IMG/VR virus record: IMGVR_UViG_3300037488_002392
Length of the DNA: 19,271 bases
DNA from: a virus
Taxonomy: Duplodnaviria; Heunggongvirae; Uroviricota; Caudoviricetes
Direction: 5' to 3' (one strand)
Of this stretch, positions 7,800 through 19,271 are shown piece by piece (within the stretch, counting starts at the first letter, position 1; each line of letters opens with the position of its first letter). Made by a program: the position numbers and the translations under genes. The notes under the pieces were generated by a model. That model worked only from the letters and a program-made list of their open reading frames with translations, was not told the DNA's origin and ran no database searches.

Positions 7800-7828
7800 A
7801 ATATAACATATTATACAATGGTTGTCAA
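7800..7828 (-). promoter_or_regulatory. sigma70-type promoter
   Basis: TTGACA (7828-7823), 17 bp, TATATT (7805-7800), in an intergenic gap; 29/32 identical to the promoter at 15198-15229. Confidence 0.75.
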
Positions 7829-9580: not shown

Positions 9581-9849
9581 TTCATCCACCAACGCCACCG
9601 TGGTAGAAAGGAGTTACTACCACGATGGCTAAGAGAGTAAAGAAGACTCACAAACCAAGAAGGTTTGTAAGCGGAAACGCTTATAGTGGTTATTGGTTTA
9701 TTGATATCAGAATGTTTAAATGAGAATGGTTTGAACCCCTCTACTATAGCACCCCAAGCCAAATCGTTCCACTTACCATGTATGAGCTTGGTGCGTAACT
9801 CTAACTGGGGGGTTCCCCATTCTATTGTGAAAGTAAATGTTTTATTCAC
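9577..9849 (-). CDS. Hypothetical protein (90 aa)
   Basis: Coupled ORF upstream of dnaB; GGGAG SD. Confidence 0.6.
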   Translation of the reverse strand: MNKTFTFTIEWGTPQLELRTKLIHGKWNDLAWGAIVEGFKPFSFKHSDINKPITTISVSAYKPSWFVSLLYSLSHRGSNSFLPRWRWWMK

Positions 9850-10225
9850 CTTCTATCTCTCCCCATTTATCAGGCAAGTCGGGGAATTTCCCCTCATGTC
9901 CTAAGGGTAGCTCAGGGAACTTACCCATCAGGTCAGTTAAGGCTGCGGATGATTTCATACTGAGTTTGAGTTGTTGCCACAGCTCATACAAAACTACTTC
10001 AGAGATGCTACCAAGTACCCGTTCCTGCGATTTATCGAACCTCAGCATCTGCTCTATCTGTTCCATCCACCACTTATCACGGGCAGCCGCTGTCTTGGAG
10101 TCCTGTGCTTTAATTAGGTCTGTAAAGAATGTACGAGGCAATATATAAGCATCAGTGGTGGGGAAAGATGGTGATATTATAACTTGCAATATCTCATCGT
10201 CAATCAATAACCGTTCATTTTCCAT
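9842..10225 (-). CDS. Modular family protein (RLL / AARDKWW / WQQLK), 127 aa
   Basis: ENERLLIDDEI, AQDSKTAAARDKWW, WQQLK. Confidence 0.75.
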   Translation of the reverse strand: MENERLLIDDEILQVIISPSFPTTDAYILPRTFFTDLIKAQDSKTAAARDKWWMEQIEQMLRFDKSQERVLGSISEVVLYELWQQLKLSMKSSAALTDLMGKFPELPLGHEGKFPDLPDKWGEIEGE

Positions 10226-15197: not shown

Positions 15198-15226
15198 AAT
15201 ATAACACATTATACAAGGCTTGTCAA
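15198..15226 (-). promoter_or_regulatory. Leftward sigma70-type promoter
   Basis: TTGACA (15226-15221), 17 bp, TATATT (15203-15198). Confidence 0.8.
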
Positions 15227-15243
15227 TAGGTGTTTATGTAATG

Positions 15244-15272
15244 TTGACATATATTGTGGTTAGGTATATAAT
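15244..15272 (+). promoter_or_regulatory. Rightward consensus sigma70 promoter
   Basis: TTGACA (15244-15249), 17 bp, TATAAT (15267-15272); ATG follows after 6 nt. Confidence 0.88.
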
Positions 15273-15278
15273 GGGGAT

Positions 15279-15416
15279 ATGATTAAATTAAATCATTACT
15301 TAACAGACAAGCAAATGGAGTACCTAAAATCACTTTCTAAGGAAACTGGTCTATCGGTAGCAGAAATATTAAGGAGGCTAATTGATAAACAAATTGCAGA
15401 GGGTAAAAATGTATAA
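15279..15416 (+). CDS. Ribbon-helix-helix (CopG/Arc-like) regulator 1 (45 aa, not in ORF track)
   Basis: MIKLNHYLTDKQMEYLKSLSKETGLSVAEILRRLIDKQIAEGKNV: beta-strand plus two helices with G-x-S-x-A-E-x-x-R. Confidence 0.85.
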   Translation: MIKLNHYLTDKQMEYLKSLSKETGLSVAEILRRLIDKQIAEGKNV

Positions 15417-15435: not shown

Positions 15436-16278
15436 ATGAGGTCTCTACTAATTCTAATGGCTATCTTATCGATAGCAATCACATCAATAAGTTGTTTGCC
15501 TACTAAAACTACCCCCACTGTTTCTACCAAAGATGTTGAGCAAGACGCTGCTATAGCTGAAGTCAGGCGTTCTGTACAGAGCGTAGACTCTTCAAAAGCT
15601 AACACTGGAGATTTCAATTTACTGAAGGGCAGGGTAGATACAATGGATGTGAAAGTTACCGCTGGAGGAGGCGGCTCAACAAATGTTTACGATAAAACCC
15701 AAACTTATACCAAGGTAGAAGTAGATGCCGCAATTGCCACCGCAATCTCTAATTTAAAAGCAGCCACTGACCAGACATGGATAAAAACAAGCGGAGGGAC
15801 TGGTGGTGGGACAACGGGGGGGACAAGCGCAACTGGTTCAGTAGTATTTGCTATAAATCCAGTATCAATCCCCCAGATATTCAGTTCATCAACGGGGGGC
15901 AACTCTAATCCGTGGATTATGACCATTAACAATCAGAGCACTACTTGGCAGTATGTCAAACCGATGATTTCTCTCAATGTAGCCTCTGGTCAACCCTCAA
16001 GCTTAGTAAGTGATGTATCCTTAATGGCAAGCGGGGGCAACTGTAGTTTAACGGGAACCCTCTTAATGCCAGGCAACTACACCTTCTCGCCCTCCAATAT
16101 GGCAACAGTAGCAACCCCCAGTGTTATAGTTTTCCCAATCTCAGGTTGCAACGGTTCGGGTGAATGGTATATCGGGCCTGGGCAACAGCAAGCTTACAAC
16201 ATCCAAATACAGGGTCTCAAAACCCCCAACCCTATCCTATGGAACGTGACCTGCTCTATCTCAGCAAGGTCTATGTAA
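15436..16278 (+). CDS. Lipoprotein with coiled coil, Gly/Thr linker and beta-rich C-terminal domain (280 aa)
   Basis: Start moved to MRSLLILMAILSIAITSISC (GGAGG SD; lipobox-like Cys); YTKVEVD motif; GGTGGGTTGG linker. Confidence 0.75.
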   Translation: MRSLLILMAILSIAITSISCLPTKTTPTVSTKDVEQDAAIAEVRRSVQSVDSSKANTGDFNLLKGRVDTMDVKVTAGGGGSTNVYDKTQTYTKVEVDAAIATAISNLKAATDQTWIKTSGGTGGGTTGGTSATGSVVFAINPVSIPQIFSSSTGGNSNPWIMTINNQSTTWQYVKPMISLNVASGQPSSLVSDVSLMASGGNCSLTGTLLMPGNYTFSPSNMATVATPSVIVFPISGCNGSGEWYIGPGQQQAYNIQIQGLKTPNPILWNVTCSISARSM

Positions 16279-16373: not shown

Positions 16374-16402
16374 TTGACTTTATGTGCAATAGTATGTATA
16401 AT
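16374..16402 (+). promoter_or_regulatory. sigma70-type promoter
   Basis: TTGACT (16374-16379), 17 bp, TATAAT (16397-16402); ATG follows after 6 nt. Confidence 0.8.
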
Positions 16403-16408
16403 GTCATT

Positions 16409-16555
16409 ATGAAAAGAATTAATTATCACTTAACAGACAAGCAAATCGAGCAATTGAAGGCTATTTCAAAGGAAACGGGTGCCCCCGTGGCGGAACTAAT
16501 ACGGCGGGCGGTGGATGCGTGGTTGCATGAACGGGGGAGGGGTGAAGTAAGATGA
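16409..16555 (+). CDS. Ribbon-helix-helix regulator 2 (48 aa, not in ORF track)
   Basis: MKRINYHLTDKQIEQLKAISKETGAPVAELIRRAVDAWL...; 21 of the first 36 residues identical to regulator 1. Confidence 0.85.
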   Translation: MKRINYHLTDKQIEQLKAISKETGAPVAELIRRAVDAWLHERGRGEVR

Positions 16556-16845
16556 GGGAAGGTTATAATAACTCATTTTATGGTAAGCACCATACTGAAG
16601 AAGCAAAACAGAAGAATAGGGAAGCGCACCTTGGCACCAAATTGAGTGAAGAGACTAAGATGAAGATGAGTGAATCCCATCGCCAAAATGATGTTTGGAC
16701 AGGACGTAAGCATAGTGAAGCATCTATCTTGAAGATGAAGATTGCTAAGTTGGGCAAAAAGGATAGCGAAGAGATGATTTGGGAGAAGTATTGGATACTT
16801 GATGGAGAGCTTTTAATAGGACAAATGTCATTTTTGTATCAATAG
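16552..16845 (+). CDS. NUMOD3-repeat protein without a nuclease domain (97 aa), possible homing-endonuclease remnant
   Basis: FYGKHHTEEAKQK, KLSEETKMKMS, GRKHSEASILKM, GKKDSEE; no GIY-YIG or HNH motif; ATGA overlap with regulator 2. Confidence 0.7.
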   Translation: MREGYNNSFYGKHHTEEAKQKNREAHLGTKLSEETKMKMSESHRQNDVWTGRKHSEASILKMKIAKLGKKDSEEMIWEKYWILDGELLIGQMSFLYQ

Positions 16846-16859
16846 TTCGCCTTCCCCCC

Positions 16860-16888
16860 TTGACAACCACTCTACATAATGTTAATCT
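16860..16888 (+). promoter_or_regulatory. sigma70-type promoter upstream of the intron-containing gene
   Basis: TTGACA (16860-16865), 17 bp, extended TGn-TAATCT (16883-16888). Confidence 0.65.
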
Positions 16889-17078
16889 AAAAACACAATG
16901 ATATGCATTATGCGTGTCGCCATATTCGGCAGTTCGCCGTCAGGTAGTTACGTTCTGTAACTATCGGACGAGCGATGTCTTTTAATTCAAATTGCGTCCC
17001 CATGAGTTCTCACTCTTCAAATGAGATTAAGCTGTCTGCTTGTGTATACGGTGGTTTGCCGAAAGGAAAACTAAGAAC

Positions 17079-17529
17079 ATGATTGGACAGGTCGTAATGC
17101 TCATGATGGTGGGCGTAATCGGCATGATAAGCTTCCAGGTCAATTGGCCCATTTATCTAGTGATAGATAAAATGAACCCAGCTAACTCGGTGAACCCTAA
17201 ACTCTTTGAGCATGGGAATACCGAACTAAATTCAACGAAAGTTGATAAATGCGTAGAGAGCAGAAACTGGGCTTCTCAACGAGAAGATGGTGTGCTCCGA
17301 ACTGCAAGGAAACTTGTAGAATGCTACAGAAATGATAGCGTCACATATCTAAAGATGTGTGGTAACAGATTGCGTGCGTGGCATCGCCACTTCTCTTTGC
17401 TCCAACACCACAGGTTGGTCAACGACAGAGAACGTGCTTATCTGCCAGATAGTAGGTATCGTAGTCGCTTTGGCGATTATAATCCTGCTGTTCATCCTCA
17501 TCGCCAAGTCTGCACAGGGTCTTACTTAA
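17079..17529 (+). CDS. Spliced CDS join(17079..17140,17373..17529): 72-aa two-helix hydrophobic protein, candidate major coat protein
   Basis: 62+157 nt = 73 codons: MIGQVVMLMMVGVIGMISFQVVRGIATSLCSNTTGWSTTENVLICQIVGIVVALAIIILLFILIAKSAQGLT; AAAGGA upstream; many C-ending codons in exon 2. Confidence 0.75.
17141..17372 (+). ncRNA. Group I self-splicing intron (232 nt, no internal homing endonuclease)
   Basis: P1 GGUC-AAUU-GGCC with U-G at the 5' splice site. P2 TTTATCTA-GTGA-TAGATAAA. P3 CCCAG/CTGGG. P4 TCGGT/ACCGA. P6a TCAAC-GAAA-GTTGA. P7 G(A)GAGCA/TGCTCC with bulged A and G-site pair. P8 CTTCTC/GAGAAG. P9 CTGCAAG-GAAA-CTTGTAG. P9.1 and P9.2 hairpins. Terminal G at 17372. Splicing restores a coherent reading frame. 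Confidence 0.9.
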
Positions 17530-17544
17530 ACTAAGTAGTGTCCC

Positions 17545-17575
17545 GTGGGTGGGGTCAATAAAAGGCTCCACCCAC
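17545..17575 (+). terminator. Stable 12-bp hairpin after the spliced gene (terminator-like or 3' stabilizer)
   Basis: GTGGGTGGGGTC pairs with GGCTCCACCCAC; no U-tract follows, so not a canonical intrinsic terminator. Confidence 0.45.
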
Positions 17576-17664
17576 AAAACTATCCATAAAATCTATGGAA
17601 CAAGGGATACAGGACGAAAGCAATAGAACAAAGAACATAAATAAAGGAATAAGGAGAAAAGGAA

Positions 17665-17754
17665 ATGGCGACAAAGAGATATTGCAACAAATGCAAAAAG
17701 TATCATATCAGTGCCAAGATGAAGGCAAAGCACCGCAAAAGCTTAAGGAAGTAA
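17665..17754 (+). CDS. Tiny basic CxxC peptide (29 aa, not in ORF track)
   Basis: MATKRYCNKCKKYHISAKMKAKHRKSLRK; AAGGAG/AAGGA SD. Confidence 0.55.
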   Translation: MATKRYCNKCKKYHISAKMKAKHRKSLRK

Positions 17755-17782
17755 CAAGAAGTAACGCTAAGGTAATCAAGTA

Positions 17783-17878
17783 GTGAGCAAAAACAACCTT
17801 AAGTGGCACATAGCAAAGATGCGGAAGCACAAACATCGCAAGGCATTGAAGAAGGACAGGAAGAAAAATAAAAAATAG
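17783..17878 (+). CDS. Tiny basic peptide resembling the bS22/COX24(mS38) motif (31 aa, not in ORF track)
   Basis: GTG start; MSKNNLKWHIAKMRKHKHRKALKKDRKKNKK; AAGGT upstream. Confidence 0.45.
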   Translation: MSKNNLKWHIAKMRKHKHRKALKKDRKKNKK

Positions 17879-17885
17879 GAGAACG

Positions 17886-18056
17886 ATGATGGCAAAGAAA
17901 GTAAAGAGAGCAAAGAGAAGCACAGGTAAGAAAGATGCGTATGGTTTTCCCAAGATAGCTACTAGGGATACCAAGGAAGTAGTTAAAGATTGGAAGAAAA
18001 CCTTCAAGACAGGCAAGGGCGGTTTCGGTTCTACGTATGCTGCTAGTGGGAAATAG
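17886..18056 (+). CDS. Small basic protein (56 aa, not in ORF track)
   Basis: MMAKKVKRAKRSTGKKDAYGFPKIATRDTKEVVKDWKKTFKTGKGGFGSTYAASGK; AGGAG SD. Confidence 0.65.
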   Translation: MMAKKVKRAKRSTGKKDAYGFPKIATRDTKEVVKDWKKTFKTGKGGFGSTYAASGK

Positions 18057-18121
18057 AGTGTAGCGTGTGTTTACCTGCACTCCATATAAGATGCAGGGTA
18101 ACTGTGAGGGAGGTGTAGGGA

Positions 18122-18337
18122 TTGAAAAAAATAATATGTAATAATGCTAGGTGGAAAGTGACAGACAGCCAATCTTGCAGAAGAAGGGCTGTTTTGTCTT
18201 ATGAAAAGGGTAATTTAACTAAGGCTGCTAACTATTGTAAGCATTTAGCCTATGTCTCAAATGATTTAGAGATAAAGAGGAAGGCTAAGTTGGATGGGTT
18301 ATATTTTAGGGAGAGGGCAAAGAGGAAGAATAAATAG
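18122..18337 (+). CDS. Small basic protein (71 aa)
   Basis: TTG start with GGAGGT SD; Lys/Arg-rich; TAGTG overlap with the next gene. Confidence 0.65.
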   Translation: MKKIICNNARWKVTDSQSCRRRAVLSYEKGNLTKAANYCKHLAYVSNDLEIKRKAKLDGLYFRERAKRKNK

Positions 18338-19271
18338 TGAAAATACTGAATACTTTTCTCTCTATCCTTATTATATGTCTGTGGTTGATGCCTGCTCCTG
18401 TGCAGGCAGACCCAATAGCAGACTTCTTGTTTCCGTGGATGAAACCTCCTGTTCCTGATTATGTAAGGATAGGGGACAAAGTAATCTACGAGGATGAGGA
18501 TGTTTATTTAGAAGCATCTCCAGCGATACTGACATCTTCGGGGTGGGTGATCTTTAAGTATAAGACAAAGACATTTACAGATGAGATGGATGTAGTGTAT
18601 GGGTTTAATGATAATCTTCAAATATCTAAACCACAGTTCTTAAATCCTTATGCAGTAAGGACAAAATATAATGAAGTAACATCAATAAAGACTGCTACCT
18701 TTGAGCCAAAATCAATAATATCAAGCGTTGAGCCTAAATATTATGTAAAGGCAGATGTGGGGGATAATGCATTAAACTCAAAAGTAGCAGTAGTAGACTG
18801 TGAGGTGGAGTCATCAATGATAGCGGGAATAGTAGGCAAAACTACAACCACTCGCCAAACACGGACGATAGCCTATGATACATTTGATGGGGTTAAATAC
18901 ACATATAAATATATAGCGACAGACCAAATTCCTTATACAGTAATAGAAGAAGGGATAGATGATATAAAGTCACCAATTACTACAAGTTCATTTAATTCTC
19001 AAGGGATGAATAAATGGCAGTCGGTTTATTCAGGGAAAACGGCTTACGCTAATCAGTTGAATGAAACAAAAGTATATATTGATATTCCTTTTGCAGGGAC
19101 AGAGAGGATAGAGGGGAAGTATTTAGTAGGGTTGAAACCCTCGTATTTAACAGTAGACCAAGCGAAAAGTGATGGGCAACTATGGTTGATTGACCCTTGG
19201 TATAATTCGTCATGGGGATATAAGAAGTCTATTGGCATAAATTGTGATACCAACCAGACCAATTACCAAAT
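18337..19271 (+). CDS. Large secreted/surface protein with a probable DUF2341-type domain (partial, >311 aa, not in ORF track)
   Basis: GTG start, signal peptide MKILNTFLSILIICLWLMPAPVQA, frame open to the window end; ends LIDPWYNSSWGYKKSIGINCDTNQTNYQ, the typical start of DUF2341 domains. Confidence 0.75.
   Translation, partial: MKILNTFLSILIICLWLMPAPVQADPIADFLFPWMKPPVPDYVRIGDKVIYEDEDVYLEASPAILTSSGWVIFKYKTKTFTDEMDVVYGFNDNLQISKPQFLNPYAVRTKYNEVTSIKTATFEPKSIISSVEPKYYVKADVGDNALNSKVAVVDCEVESSMIAGIVGKTTTTRQTRTIAYDTFDGVKYTYKYIATDQIPYTVIEEGIDDIKSPITTSSFNSQGMNKWQSVYSGKTAYANQLNETKVYIDIPFAGTERIEGKYLVGLKPSYLTVDQAKSDGQLWLIDPWYNSSWGYKKSIGINCDTNQTNYQ

What the first reader, a model, noticed from the sequence alone, without database searches (positions are those of the whole stretch)
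17079..19271. Spindle-shaped-virus-like coat module in a virus with bacterial expression signals
Seen: the spliced protein is 72 aa with two long hydrophobic helices (IGQVVMLMMVGVIGMISFQVV; VLICQIVGIVVALAIIILLFILIA). Its short loop has a Cys pair and an N-T-T sequon, its codon usage differs from the AT-rich background, and it has its own promoter and a strong 3' hairpin. It is followed by four small basic proteins and a large secreted protein. No tailed-phage structural genes are in the window. Known: fusellovirus/halspivirus major capsid proteins (e.g. SSV1 VP1) are ~70-80-aa glycosylated hydrophobic hairpins accompanied by a basic nucleoprotein and a large adhesin; His1-type viruses encode pPolB; such viruses are described from archaea. 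Inference: this may be a lemon-shaped, filamentous or enveloped virus of a bacterium, possibly one with a reduced wall. The resemblance is pattern-level, from memory.
Basis: partly seen in the sequence, partly recalled or inferred. Interest (0 to 1): 0.9.

Follow-up and report, generated by a model that had tools for sequence, protein, structure and literature searches.

The report
Intron-split hairpin membrane protein, unclassified virus
A tiny, very strongly conserved two-helix membrane protein gene, interrupted by a self-splicing-type intron, opens an operon of small basic proteins and secreted, membrane-anchored glycoprotein-like proteins in a ~100-kb virus-like genome with bacterial promoters. 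No tailed-phage parts were found in that lineage, and its relatives carry their own archaeal-type N-glycosylation enzyme, so it may be a kind of bacterial virus not seen before.

Summary
Removing 17141-17372 joins two exons into a 72-aa protein. At least 27 uninterrupted 72-aa homologues (75-92% identical) confirm the junction, and the insert is a covariation-supported group I intron. Relatives carry such introns at four different sites of this 219-nt gene.

The protein is a predicted two-helix hairpin with a conserved Cys pair and a conserved N-x-S/T sequon. It has its own sigma70-type promoter, a conserved 3' hairpin and a high GC3. The four small basic genes and the secreted protein are conserved, syntenic and real.

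Three related lineages encode an AglB/STT3-type oligosaccharyltransferase; in two of them a large glycan-synthesis cluster (~20 kb in one) was seen beside it. No terminase, portal or HK97 capsid gene was found in the parts of relatives examined or in two MAG bins.

The protein has no detectable homology to SSV1 VP3, Pfam, PHROGs or PDB, so the fusellovirus likeness is architectural only. Promoters, lipoboxes and replication genes point to a bacterial host, probably Bacillota.

Best reading (0.45): a highly expressed, N-glycosylated major virion-membrane or coat protein of a non-tailed bacterial virus. Virion shape is untested. The OST was not seen in the window's own genome. Earlier notes of this scan cover the same genome.

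The parts
15436..16278 (+). Lipoprotein gene (cluster C2), first conserved gene of the rightward operon. The ORF finder starts it at TTG 15382; the ATG at 15436 behind GGAGGG is the likelier start.
   Evidence: Signal peptide ending in a lipobox with Cys-Leu-Pro in 7 of 7 full-length homologues; syntenic upstream of the 72-aa gene in all long relatives; no Pfam or PHROG family.
16552..16845 (+). 97-aa NUMOD3-only protein, a likely remnant or free-standing homing-endonuclease DNA-binding module next to the intron-bearing gene.
   Evidence: Pfam NUMOD3 7e-13 and PHROG homing endonuclease hits; clusters with 297-395-aa proteins in L023 and L021.
16860..16888 (+). Sigma70-type promoter of the 72-aa gene: TTGACA, 17 nt, TAATCT, with TG at 16880-16881 (extended -10).
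   Evidence: Sequence; the same layout is kept upstream of the gene in L013, L025, L018, L007 and L024 although their leaders differ.
16889..17078 (+). 190-nt 5' leader. A small hairpin with a GGU-containing loop (about 17047-17063) sits directly before the AAAGGAAAA ribosome-binding site.
   Evidence: Alignment of 15 upstream regions: stems differ by paired changes, the loop and position are kept. Its folding energy alone is not significant (z -1.5).
17079..17140 (+). Exon 1 of the 72-aa gene (codons 1-20 plus two bases); ends in GGU.
   Evidence: tblastn exon map; uninterrupted homologues.
17141..17372 (+). 232-nt group I intron (site B); U.G pair at the 5' splice site, terminal G, P7 variant GAGCA/UGCUC.
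   Evidence: Fold z -4.76; consensus structure with 39 of 54 pairs compensated across 11 related introns; relatives reach Rfam RF00028 at 67-79 bits; the window's copy is below every Rfam threshold.
17373..17529 (+). Exon 2 of the 72-aa gene (third base of codon 21, codons 22-72, stop).
17545..17575 (+). Conserved 12-bp hairpin with loop CAAUAAA after the stop codon; a transcript-end or stability element, not a canonical intrinsic terminator.
   Evidence: -23.7 kcal/mol, z -5.5; stems covary and the loop is conserved in L013, L012, L029, L023 and L025; not picked up by the terminator scan because there is no T-run.
17665..17754 (+). 29-aa basic protein with a C-x2-C motif (K+R 41%).
   Evidence: AAGGAG ribosome-binding site upstream; 71-86% identical copies at the same place in L013, L021 and L025-L028.
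17783..17878 (+). 31-aa basic protein with a KWHxxKMRKHKHRK core (K+R 48%).
   Evidence: 65-94% identical copies in 12 or more relatives, same order.
17886..18056 (+). 56-aa basic protein (K+R 30%).
   Evidence: Conserved at 34-79% in relatives, same order.
18122..18337 (+). 71-aa basic protein (cluster C3), always directly upstream of the large secreted protein.
   Evidence: 35-82% identical in all long relatives; no Pfam family (homologue).
18337..19271 (+). N-terminal 311 aa of the large secreted, membrane-anchored protein (cluster C1); runs off the window.
   Evidence: Sec signal peptide; homologues are 1115-1426 aa with DUF2341 (tested on the L012 homologue), a conserved C-terminal multi-pass anchor and sequon excess z 2.4-4.2.

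Best explanation
The stretch is the start of a membrane and surface-protein (probably virion) operon of a roughly 100-kb double-stranded DNA virus-like element with a bacterial, probably Bacillota, host.

Shown: the gene at 17079-17529 is interrupted by a group I intron, and removing that intron restores a 72-aa protein. The protein is predicted to fold as a two-helix hairpin.

Inferred: both ends lie in the cytoplasm, and a short helical stalk outside the membrane carries a Cys30-Cys45 staple and an N-glycan on Asn32. It is made in large amounts. That follows from its own sigma70 promoter, its ribosome-binding-site hairpin, its 3' hairpin, its biased codons and the frequent tandem duplication of the gene. 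It inserts into the host membrane and is glycosylated by the element's own AglB/STT3-type oligosaccharyltransferase. That enzyme and its glycan-synthesis cluster are shown in relatives only. The protein then forms the bulk membrane or coat component of a non-tailed particle. The four small basic proteins would condense the DNA. The lipoprotein, the 1200-1400-aa and ~600-aa secreted anchored proteins and two small membrane proteins would form the surface. A small P-loop ATPase found in relatives may drive assembly at the membrane.
For: The gene is real and under strong constraint. There are 27 uninterrupted homologues. Synonymous sites are near saturation while amino-acid identity is 75-97%. 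Neighbouring proteins are only 37-63% identical between the same genomes. Tandem copies occur in many relatives.

AlphaFold2 predicts a hairpin, helices 2-34 and 39-70, pLDDT 82.7. C30, C45, N32, G35 and F19 are invariant in the 20-sequence alignment; W36 is invariant in the first alignment and nearly so in the wider one. The sequon is kept as NTT, NTS, NAT or NYT.

The operon is syntenic and made of secreted or membrane proteins: lipobox, Sec signal peptides, conserved anchors, and three conserved sequons in the ~100-aa cluster C16 protein.

An oligosaccharyltransferase sits convergent to the polymerase/DnaB operon in three relatives. The hits are STT3 plus AglB_core-like in Pfam and TIGR04154 at 3e-92; the protein has the WWDYG motif. 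It is preceded by a glycan cluster, about 20 kb in the Ace Lake lineage. No homologue was found in 200 other genomes of the class of the MAG that holds one relative.

No terminase, portal or HK97 capsid gene was seen in the gene tables of the left ~47 kb, in the ATPase regions, among the selected ORFs of three joined contigs of G001 that were scanned, or in family searches of two whole MAG bins. The lineage is absent from IMG/VR and from 50,697 phage records.

For a bacterial host: perfect or near-perfect sigma70 promoters lie at operon starts, and the element has DnaB, an IstB/DnaC-like loader, Sipho_Gp157, YopX and group I introns.
Against: No particle, transcript or protein has been observed; every functional step is inferred.

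The 72-aa family has no detectable relative among known virion proteins, and a two-helix hairpin is a very common membrane fold.

The oligosaccharyltransferase and the ATPase were found only in relatives. The window's own left end shows no synteny with their flanks, and the rest of this genome could not be read here.

The sequon is lost in a few family members (L022, P0034, P0036). Most of the sequon excess in the large proteins comes from composition.

The right-hand ~45 kb of the longest relative (L023 contig, 103.6 kb) was not inspected, so divergent capsid genes could sit there. HK97-fold proteins often escape Pfam.

A walled Bacillota host would make budding hard to imagine.
Confidence: 0.45

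Rival explanations
1. The element is an ordinary, very divergent or only partly sampled tailed phage. This operon would then encode proteins placed in the host envelope during infection, for example for superinfection exclusion, surface remodelling or membrane organisation, and the 72-aa protein would be an abundant host-membrane protein, not a virion part.
For: The replication genes, homing endonucleases, inteins and introns are typical of large lytic phages. Earlier notes describe giant polyvalent proteins and arrays of tiny basic proteins compared there with packaged phage proteins. Pectate-lyase-like beta-helix proteins, as in tailspikes, lie near the ATPase. Part of the genome remains unseen.
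Against: No terminase, portal or capsid family was found in any region examined or in two whole bins. No unassigned ORF of terminase or portal size was noted in the regions annotated. A glycan cluster of about 20 kb plus an oligosaccharyltransferase is a heavy investment for an accessory function.
Confidence: 0.22
2. The element is not a virus but a plasmid-like or other mobile element. The operon would decorate the host cell surface with glycosylated adhesins, for example for cell-cell contact, and the 72-aa protein would be a pilin-like or anchoring subunit.
For: There are no capsid genes. It has secreted, anchored adhesin-like proteins and polyvalent giant proteins, which also occur on conjugative elements. 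The contigs were binned with bacterial MAGs.
Against: No VirB4, coupling protein, relaxase or partition genes appear in any gene table. Dense homing endonucleases, four intron sites and an intein point to frequent co-infection, as in lytic viruses. No pilin family matched.
Confidence: 0.1
3. The 72-aa protein is a class II-type holin or pinholin, or an antiholin pair where the gene is duplicated.
For: It has the size and two transmembrane helices of a class II-type holin (own knowledge); holins are diverse and often lack family matches; tandem copies could be a holin and antiholin.
Against: No endolysin is nearby or in any gene table. There is no charged C-terminal tail. Conservation is extreme compared with neighbours, which is unusual for holins (own knowledge). 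The Cys pair and sequon in the outside loop are conserved. The gene sits at the head of a surface-protein operon with a strong promoter. No PHROG or Pfam holin hit.
Confidence: 0.07
4. The protein is a true, very diverged homologue of the fusellovirus/halspivirus VP1-type capsid protein, and the particle is spindle-shaped.
For: The architecture is the same as SSV19 VP1, a curved hydrophobic alpha-hairpin (PMC9351363), and as mature SSV1 VP1 or VP3 with N-x-T sequons in the loop. The neighbourhood is the same: paralogous hairpin genes followed by a small basic protein. A DUF5658 protein occurs both in SSV1 and in a relative. The OST is of archaeal type.
Against: hhalign probability is 0.2% against VP3. 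No fold-search signal. The host signals are bacterial. The genome is five to seven times larger than fusellovirus genomes. No homologues of the SSV nozzle, adaptor or VP4 proteins were looked for or seen.
Confidence: 0.08

Closest known systems
Fuselloviridae VP1-VP3-VP2 module (SSV1, SSV19)
   Same: A ~70-85-aa hydrophobic two-helix hairpin coat protein (PMC9351363). N-x-T sequons lie in the loop of SSV1 VP1 and VP3. A paralogous second copy lies next to it, directly followed by a small basic DNA-binding protein. The virion adhesin is large and N-glycosylated at N-x-T.
   Different: No sequence or profile similarity. The host signals here are bacterial. The genome is ~100 kb against 15-24 kb (fusellovirus range from own knowledge). 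The element brings its own oligosaccharyltransferase and glycan cluster. The loop has a conserved Cys pair. The gene carries group I introns.
Plasmaviridae (Acholeplasma phage L2) and Pleolipoviridae
   Same: Non-tailed particles built from a host-derived membrane with small integral membrane proteins and spike proteins; release by budding (ICTV profile PMC12662186, listed, for Plasmaviridae; Pleolipoviridae from own knowledge).
   Different: Those genomes are about 7-17 kb (own knowledge) with no glycosylation machinery. No shared genes were tested or found. The host here is not known to lack a wall.
Inovirus major coat protein pVIII with the Zot/pI assembly ATPase
   Same: A small hydrophobic coat protein stored in the membrane and assembled there by a P-loop ATPase (own knowledge). 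The ATPase of relatives has Zot-like proteins among its nearest predicted-structure clusters.
   Different: Here there are two helices, no cleaved signal peptide and no basic C-terminal tail. The genome is large and double-stranded. In PDB comparisons the ATPase ties with RecA, HerA, TcpA and STIV B204, so its subfamily is open.
Multi-intron phage genes (for example Staphylococcus phage Twort orf142, T4 td/nrdB/nrdD)
   Same: Group I introns sit in conserved phage genes, with homing endonuclease genes nearby (own knowledge; not checked in papers here).
   Different: Four alternative insertion sites within one 219-nt gene, all after GGU, with up to two introns per copy. I know of no equally small gene with so many sites.
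Archaeal AglB / bacterial PglB N-glycosylation systems
   Same: STT3-family enzyme with WWDYG, next to glycosyltransferases and sugar-modifying enzymes.
   Different: Encoded on a virus-like element with bacterial promoters. The best match is the archaeal subfamily model, below its cut-off (310 against 450 bits). A text search found no paper on a virus-encoded enzyme of this kind.

Membership tests
Fusellovirus/halspivirus VP1-type major capsid protein | Small protein of two hydrophobic alpha-helices joined by a short loop | tested here: met
   AlphaFold2 on 20 homologues: helices 2-34 and 39-70, pLDDT 82.7. Hydrophobic segments are about 2-21 and 47-65.
Fusellovirus/halspivirus VP1-type major capsid protein | Detectable sequence or profile homology to VP1/VP3 | tested here: not met
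   hhalign of alignment A2 against SSV1 VP3: probability 0.2%. tblastn against 50,697 phage and archaeal-virus records, which include SSV1: no match. VP1 itself and His1 VP21 were not aligned as profiles.
Fusellovirus/halspivirus VP1-type major capsid protein | N-glycosylated in the virion | not testable with these tools
   The support is indirect only: a conserved sequon and an oligosaccharyltransferase in relatives.
Fusellovirus/halspivirus VP1-type major capsid protein | Archaeal host | tested here: not met
   Sigma70 promoters at operon starts, conserved across relatives; bacterial lipobox in 7 of 7 homologues; DnaB, DnaC-like loader, YopX and Gp157. This is indirect, and the host itself is unidentified.
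Fusellovirus/halspivirus VP1-type major capsid protein | Forms a spindle-shaped shell | not testable with these tools
   Needs microscopy.
Group I intron (Rfam RF00028) | Conserved P3-P9 core supported by covariation, U before the 5' splice site, terminal G | tested here: met
   54 pairs, 39 compensated, P7 with five pair variants. The exon ends in GGU and the intron in G at all four sites.
Group I intron (Rfam RF00028) | Score at or above the curated Rfam threshold | tested here: inconclusive
   The window's copy gives no hit even at E 10. Homologous introns in L021, L019 and L012 score 67-79 bits against a threshold of 50.
Caudoviricetes (tailed phages) | Large terminase, portal and HK97-fold capsid genes | tested here: inconclusive
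   Not found in the window, in gene tables of relatives, or in two MAG bins with four Pfam models. No complete genome could be scanned, and divergent folds can escape these models.
Holins | Adjacent endolysin, charged C-terminal tail, match to a holin family | tested here: not met
   No lysin appears in any table. The tail is A-K-x-A-x-G-L. No Pfam or PHROG holin hit at E up to 1-10.
Type IV secretion pilins (VirB2/TraA) | Family match and accompanying VirB4 or coupling protein | tested here: inconclusive
   No Pfam match. No such ATPases in the gene tables. The family was not searched for directly.
STT3/AglB/PglB oligosaccharyltransferase (relatives only) | STT3 membrane domain plus core domain with WWDYG | tested here: met
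   Pfam STT3 at 61 bits and AglB_core-like at 35 bits, both above their cut-offs. TIGR04154 at 3e-92, below its cut-off. WWDYG is in the sequence. The enzyme is not shown for the window's own genome.

The most novel reading that the evidence does not exclude
This lineage is a large (~100 kb) non-tailed, membrane-clad or spindle-like dsDNA virus of bacteria. It would build its particle from an N-glycosylated hairpin protein, protamine-like basic proteins and anchored glycoprotein spikes, using an archaeal-type N-glycosylation pathway that it carries itself. That would be the first bacterial counterpart of the archaeal spindle and pleomorphic viruses, and a case of cross-domain transfer of a virion-building toolkit.
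Probability: 0.3. Interest if true: 0.95.

Novelty: new variant of a known kind. Interest (0 to 1): 0.85.

Why it matters
All known bacterial viruses with large double-stranded DNA genomes are tailed. Hairpin-coat, glycosylated, membrane-associated particles are regarded as an archaeal speciality.

A bacterial lineage with that toolkit would change the picture of which virion designs are open to bacteria. So would its own oligosaccharyltransferase and glycan cluster, which no paper in the searched library describes for a virus. It would also give a natural, self-contained N-glycosylation cassette with bacterial promoters.

The lineage is missed by virus catalogues (not in IMG/VR), which shows a blind spot of hallmark-gene-based virus detection. 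Separately, a 219-nt gene with four alternative group I intron sites is a compact natural system for studying intron homing and ectopic insertion.

Tried and rejected
- Rfam on the window, at gathering thresholds and at E up to 10: no intron hit. This was resolved through relatives.
- DNA and protein searches of phage records and IMG/VR: nothing.
- Exact look-up of two window proteins: not on record.
- The whole genome is not held, and the genome search cannot reach the metagenome records. The 103.6-kb contig behind L023 therefore could not be scanned beyond 20 kb.
- Pfam, PHROGs and PDB sequence searches of the 72-aa family: only chance-level hits.
- Foldseek of the hairpin model against BFVD and PDB: nothing below E 0.3, only generic membrane hairpins. 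Fold comparison cannot separate coat, pilin and holin.
- The exhaustive profile search found only 9 cluster representatives, all the same narrow family.
- ESM Atlas for the lipoprotein: poor model, no usable match.
- The two larger unknown proteins near the ATPase in L054 look like a NUMOD3-type endonuclease and a pectate-lyase-like beta-helix protein, not capsid or portal (feature scores only).
- ATPase subfamily: RecA/Rad51, HerA, TcpA, FlaH and STIV B204 are tied in PDB.
- The polymerase-like 389-aa protein matches only a PHROG 'DNA polymerase' family and nothing in PDB. A protein-primed polymerase was not confirmed.
- The homo-tetramer prediction of the 72-aa protein gave no verdict (score 0.27, mark 0.42).
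- An archaeal host was considered because of the AglB-type enzyme, DUF2206, DUF2341 and DUF5658. It was judged less likely because of the conserved sigma70 -35/extended -10 architecture, the lipoboxes, the phage-type replication genes and the introns.
- The window's left end shows no similarity to genes flanking the OST in relatives.


Full report
**What is at the coordinates.** An ATG at 17079 opens a frame that stays open to 17534 (151 aa), but its last third reads like out-of-frame sequence. A second frame (17359-17529) ends in a clean transmembrane helix. I searched with that joined protein and found 27 uninterrupted proteins of 71-74 aa, 75-92% identical over the full length. All of them read straight through the proposed junction. 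Twenty-three further metagenome loci and two MAG contigs carry the gene. The spliced product is therefore the conserved one; the 151-aa read-through is not.

**The insert is a group I intron.** Rfam finds nothing in the window, even at E 10, but the 232-nt insert folds far better than shuffles (z -4.76). Relatives carry homologous inserts, and three of them reach RF00028 at 67-79 bits. A joint alignment of eleven inserts, the window's included, gives 54 pairs, 39 with compensatory changes. P7 occurs as GACUA/UAGUC, GAGCA/UGCUC (the window), GCGCA/UGCGC, GAACG/CGUUC and GAACA/UGUUC.

The inserts occupy four different sites of this 219-nt gene: after nt 14, about 32, 62 and about 106. Each site follows GGU, and some copies hold two introns. 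A NUMOD3-only protein lies just upstream in the window, and full-length relatives of it occur in L023 and L021.

**The protein.**
- *Constraint.* Synonymous sites are close to saturation while amino-acid identity stays at 75-97%. Neighbouring proteins are only 37-63% identical between the same genomes. The gene is tandemly duplicated in many relatives.
- *Fold.* AlphaFold2 gives two long helices, 2-34 and 39-70, pLDDT 82.7.
- *Conserved residues.* C30, C45, N32, G35 and F19 are invariant in the 20-sequence alignment; W36 is invariant in the first alignment and nearly so in the wider one. The sequon survives changes of its letters (NTT, NTS, NAT, NYT) but is lost in a few distant members.
- *Family size.* An exhaustive profile search of 1.84 billion representatives found only nine, all this family. 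Pfam, PHROGs, PDB sequences, BFVD and PDB folds give nothing meaningful.
- *Fusellovirus comparison.* hhalign against SSV1 VP3 gives probability 0.2%. The likeness to fusellovirus VP1 is real at the level of architecture and neighbourhood, but it is not homology that can be shown.

**Expression features.** The promoter at 16860-16888 is TTGACA, 17 nt, TAATCT, with an upstream TG. Relatives with quite different leaders keep TTGAC[AT]-N17(..TGT)-TAnnnT. GC3 of the gene is 0.63 against 0.34-0.45 in four other genes. A small hairpin directly before the ribosome-binding site and a 12-bp hairpin after the stop (z -5.5) are conserved, with covarying stems. The 3' hairpin has no U-tract.

**The module.** In all long relatives the order is the same:
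1. A lipoprotein, with a lipobox in 7 of 7 homologues.
2. Sometimes homing endonucleases.
3. One or two 72-aa genes.
4. The small basic genes. All four window genes are conserved in order.
5. A 1115-1426-aa secreted protein with a conserved multi-pass anchor. DUF2341 was found in the L012 homologue.
6. A ~600-aa paralogue with fn3-like signal.
7. A ~145-aa two-helix membrane protein.
8. A ~100-aa membrane protein with three conserved sequons.
9. The giant protein described in earlier notes.

Sequons are in moderate excess in the secreted proteins (z 2.4-4.2) and depleted in the giant protein.

**New context from relatives.** Three independent lineages were followed: L012, the MAG contigs C131 and C162 joined by a 150-nt end overlap, and the Ace Lake lineage followed by walking. 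All three have an STT3/AglB-type oligosaccharyltransferase convergent to the polymerase/DnaB operon. A glycan cluster was seen upstream of it in G001 and in the Ace Lake lineage, about 20 kb long in the latter. Between them these clusters hold several family 2 and 4 glycosyltransferases, dehydratases/epimerases, a DegT aminotransferase, split transketolase, a formyltransferase, a radical SAM enzyme, DUF2206 membrane proteins, and a UDP-glucose dehydrogenase that carries an intein.

The enzyme was not found in 200 other genomes of the MAG's class. I could not show it in the window's own genome.

Further right, relatives have a conserved 275-317-aa P-loop ATPase among small membrane proteins. 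Its predicted fold lies among Zot-like, HerA/FtsK, RecA and STIV B204-type ATPases without a clear winner.

**Tailed-phage genes.** None was found in any of these places:
- the ten largest ORFs of the window;
- the precomputed Pfam tables for the left ~47 kb;
- the operon itself;
- the ATPase regions;
- the selected ORFs of three joined MAG contigs (about 63 kb) that were scanned;
- four hallmark Pfam models run over two whole MAG bins.

The lineage is absent from IMG/VR. It was not fully run either, because about 45 kb of the longest contig remains unread.

**Host.** Perfect (12/12) and 11/12 sigma70 promoters sit exactly at the operon starts and are conserved in architecture across relatives. 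Together with the lipoboxes, DnaB, an IstB/DnaC-like loader, Sipho_Gp157, YopX and the group I introns, this points to a bacterium. One relative was binned in a Clostridia MAG and another in a Sulfuricurvum MAG, so binning is not reliable. The archaeal flavour of the glycosylation genes is better explained by gene transfer than by an archaeal host.

**Verdict.** The most likely function is a highly expressed, glycosylated virion-membrane or coat protein of a non-tailed bacterial virus (0.45). Membership in the fusellovirus coat family is not supported. The homo-oligomer prediction gave no verdict and is not used as evidence.

Noticed in passing
L018:9774-10005, L021:9518-9749 and 9768-10007, L024:614-846 and 877-1114, L025:778-1024 and 1098-1313: Related group I introns occupy four different sites of the same 219-nt gene in different relatives, always after GGU. 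Some copies hold two. This suggests repeated ectopic insertion guided by a short guide sequence.
   Followed up: partly
L012:252-2162; L034 (G001 C162):6076-20960; L046-L049: Relatives encode an AglB/STT3-type oligosaccharyltransferase. In two of them it is preceded by a glycan-synthesis cluster, about 20 kb in the Ace Lake lineage. In that lineage the UDP-glucose dehydrogenase is 642 aa and carries intein and LAGLIDADG signals.
   Followed up: partly
window 17047-17063 and the same place in 14 relatives: A small hairpin with a conserved GGU-containing loop sits directly before the ribosome-binding site of the 72-aa gene. The stems differ by paired changes, so it may be a binding site for a translational regulator.
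   Followed up: partly
window 17545-17575; L012, L013, L023, L025, L029 after the stop codon: The 3' hairpin keeps its loop, (U)C(A/G)AUAAA(A)GG, while the stems covary. The conserved loop suggests recognition by a protein and not just termination.
   Followed up: partly
L042 (G001 C127):4-816 with L035:3-155; P0037-P0056: A conserved 275-317-aa P-loop ATPase (Walker A G-x-F-G-x-G-K-S) without any Pfam or PHROG family. It is always preceded by three conserved small proteins, two of them membrane proteins. Zot-like and HerA-like proteins are among its nearest predicted folds.
   Followed up: partly
L049:1-600 and L051:1-600: Two contigs from different samples begin within 7 nt of each other, about 47 kb left of the 72-aa gene. 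In the 103.6-kb contig behind L023 the gene lies 47.6 kb from the contig start. This may be a physical genome end.
   Followed up: no
L049:1588-1902 (minus strand): A DUF5658 protein. The same family is annotated in SSV1 (SSV-1p18). It may be coincidence.
   Followed up: no
L023:16832-17134, L021:16918-17226, L036 (G001 C131 24148-24462): A ~100-aa two-helix membrane protein with three strictly conserved sequons (NGT, NAS, NAT) in its outside loop. It is a good reporter for testing N-glycosylation.
   Followed up: no
window 16552-16845: A NUMOD3-only 97-aa protein lies directly upstream of the intron-bearing gene. Homologues of 297-395 aa elsewhere suggest a truncated or free-standing homing-endonuclease module.
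   Followed up: partly
L054:2962-4344: A 460-aa protein with a weak Cas12f/TnpB-type signal lies inside the operon of tiny genes of a relative.
   Followed up: no
window 15198-15272, 7800-7828, 16374-16402: Perfect or 11/12 sigma70 promoters sit at every operon start, two of them back to back. The RHH gene at 15279 starts 6 nt after TATAAT, so it is probably leaderless.
   Followed up: partly
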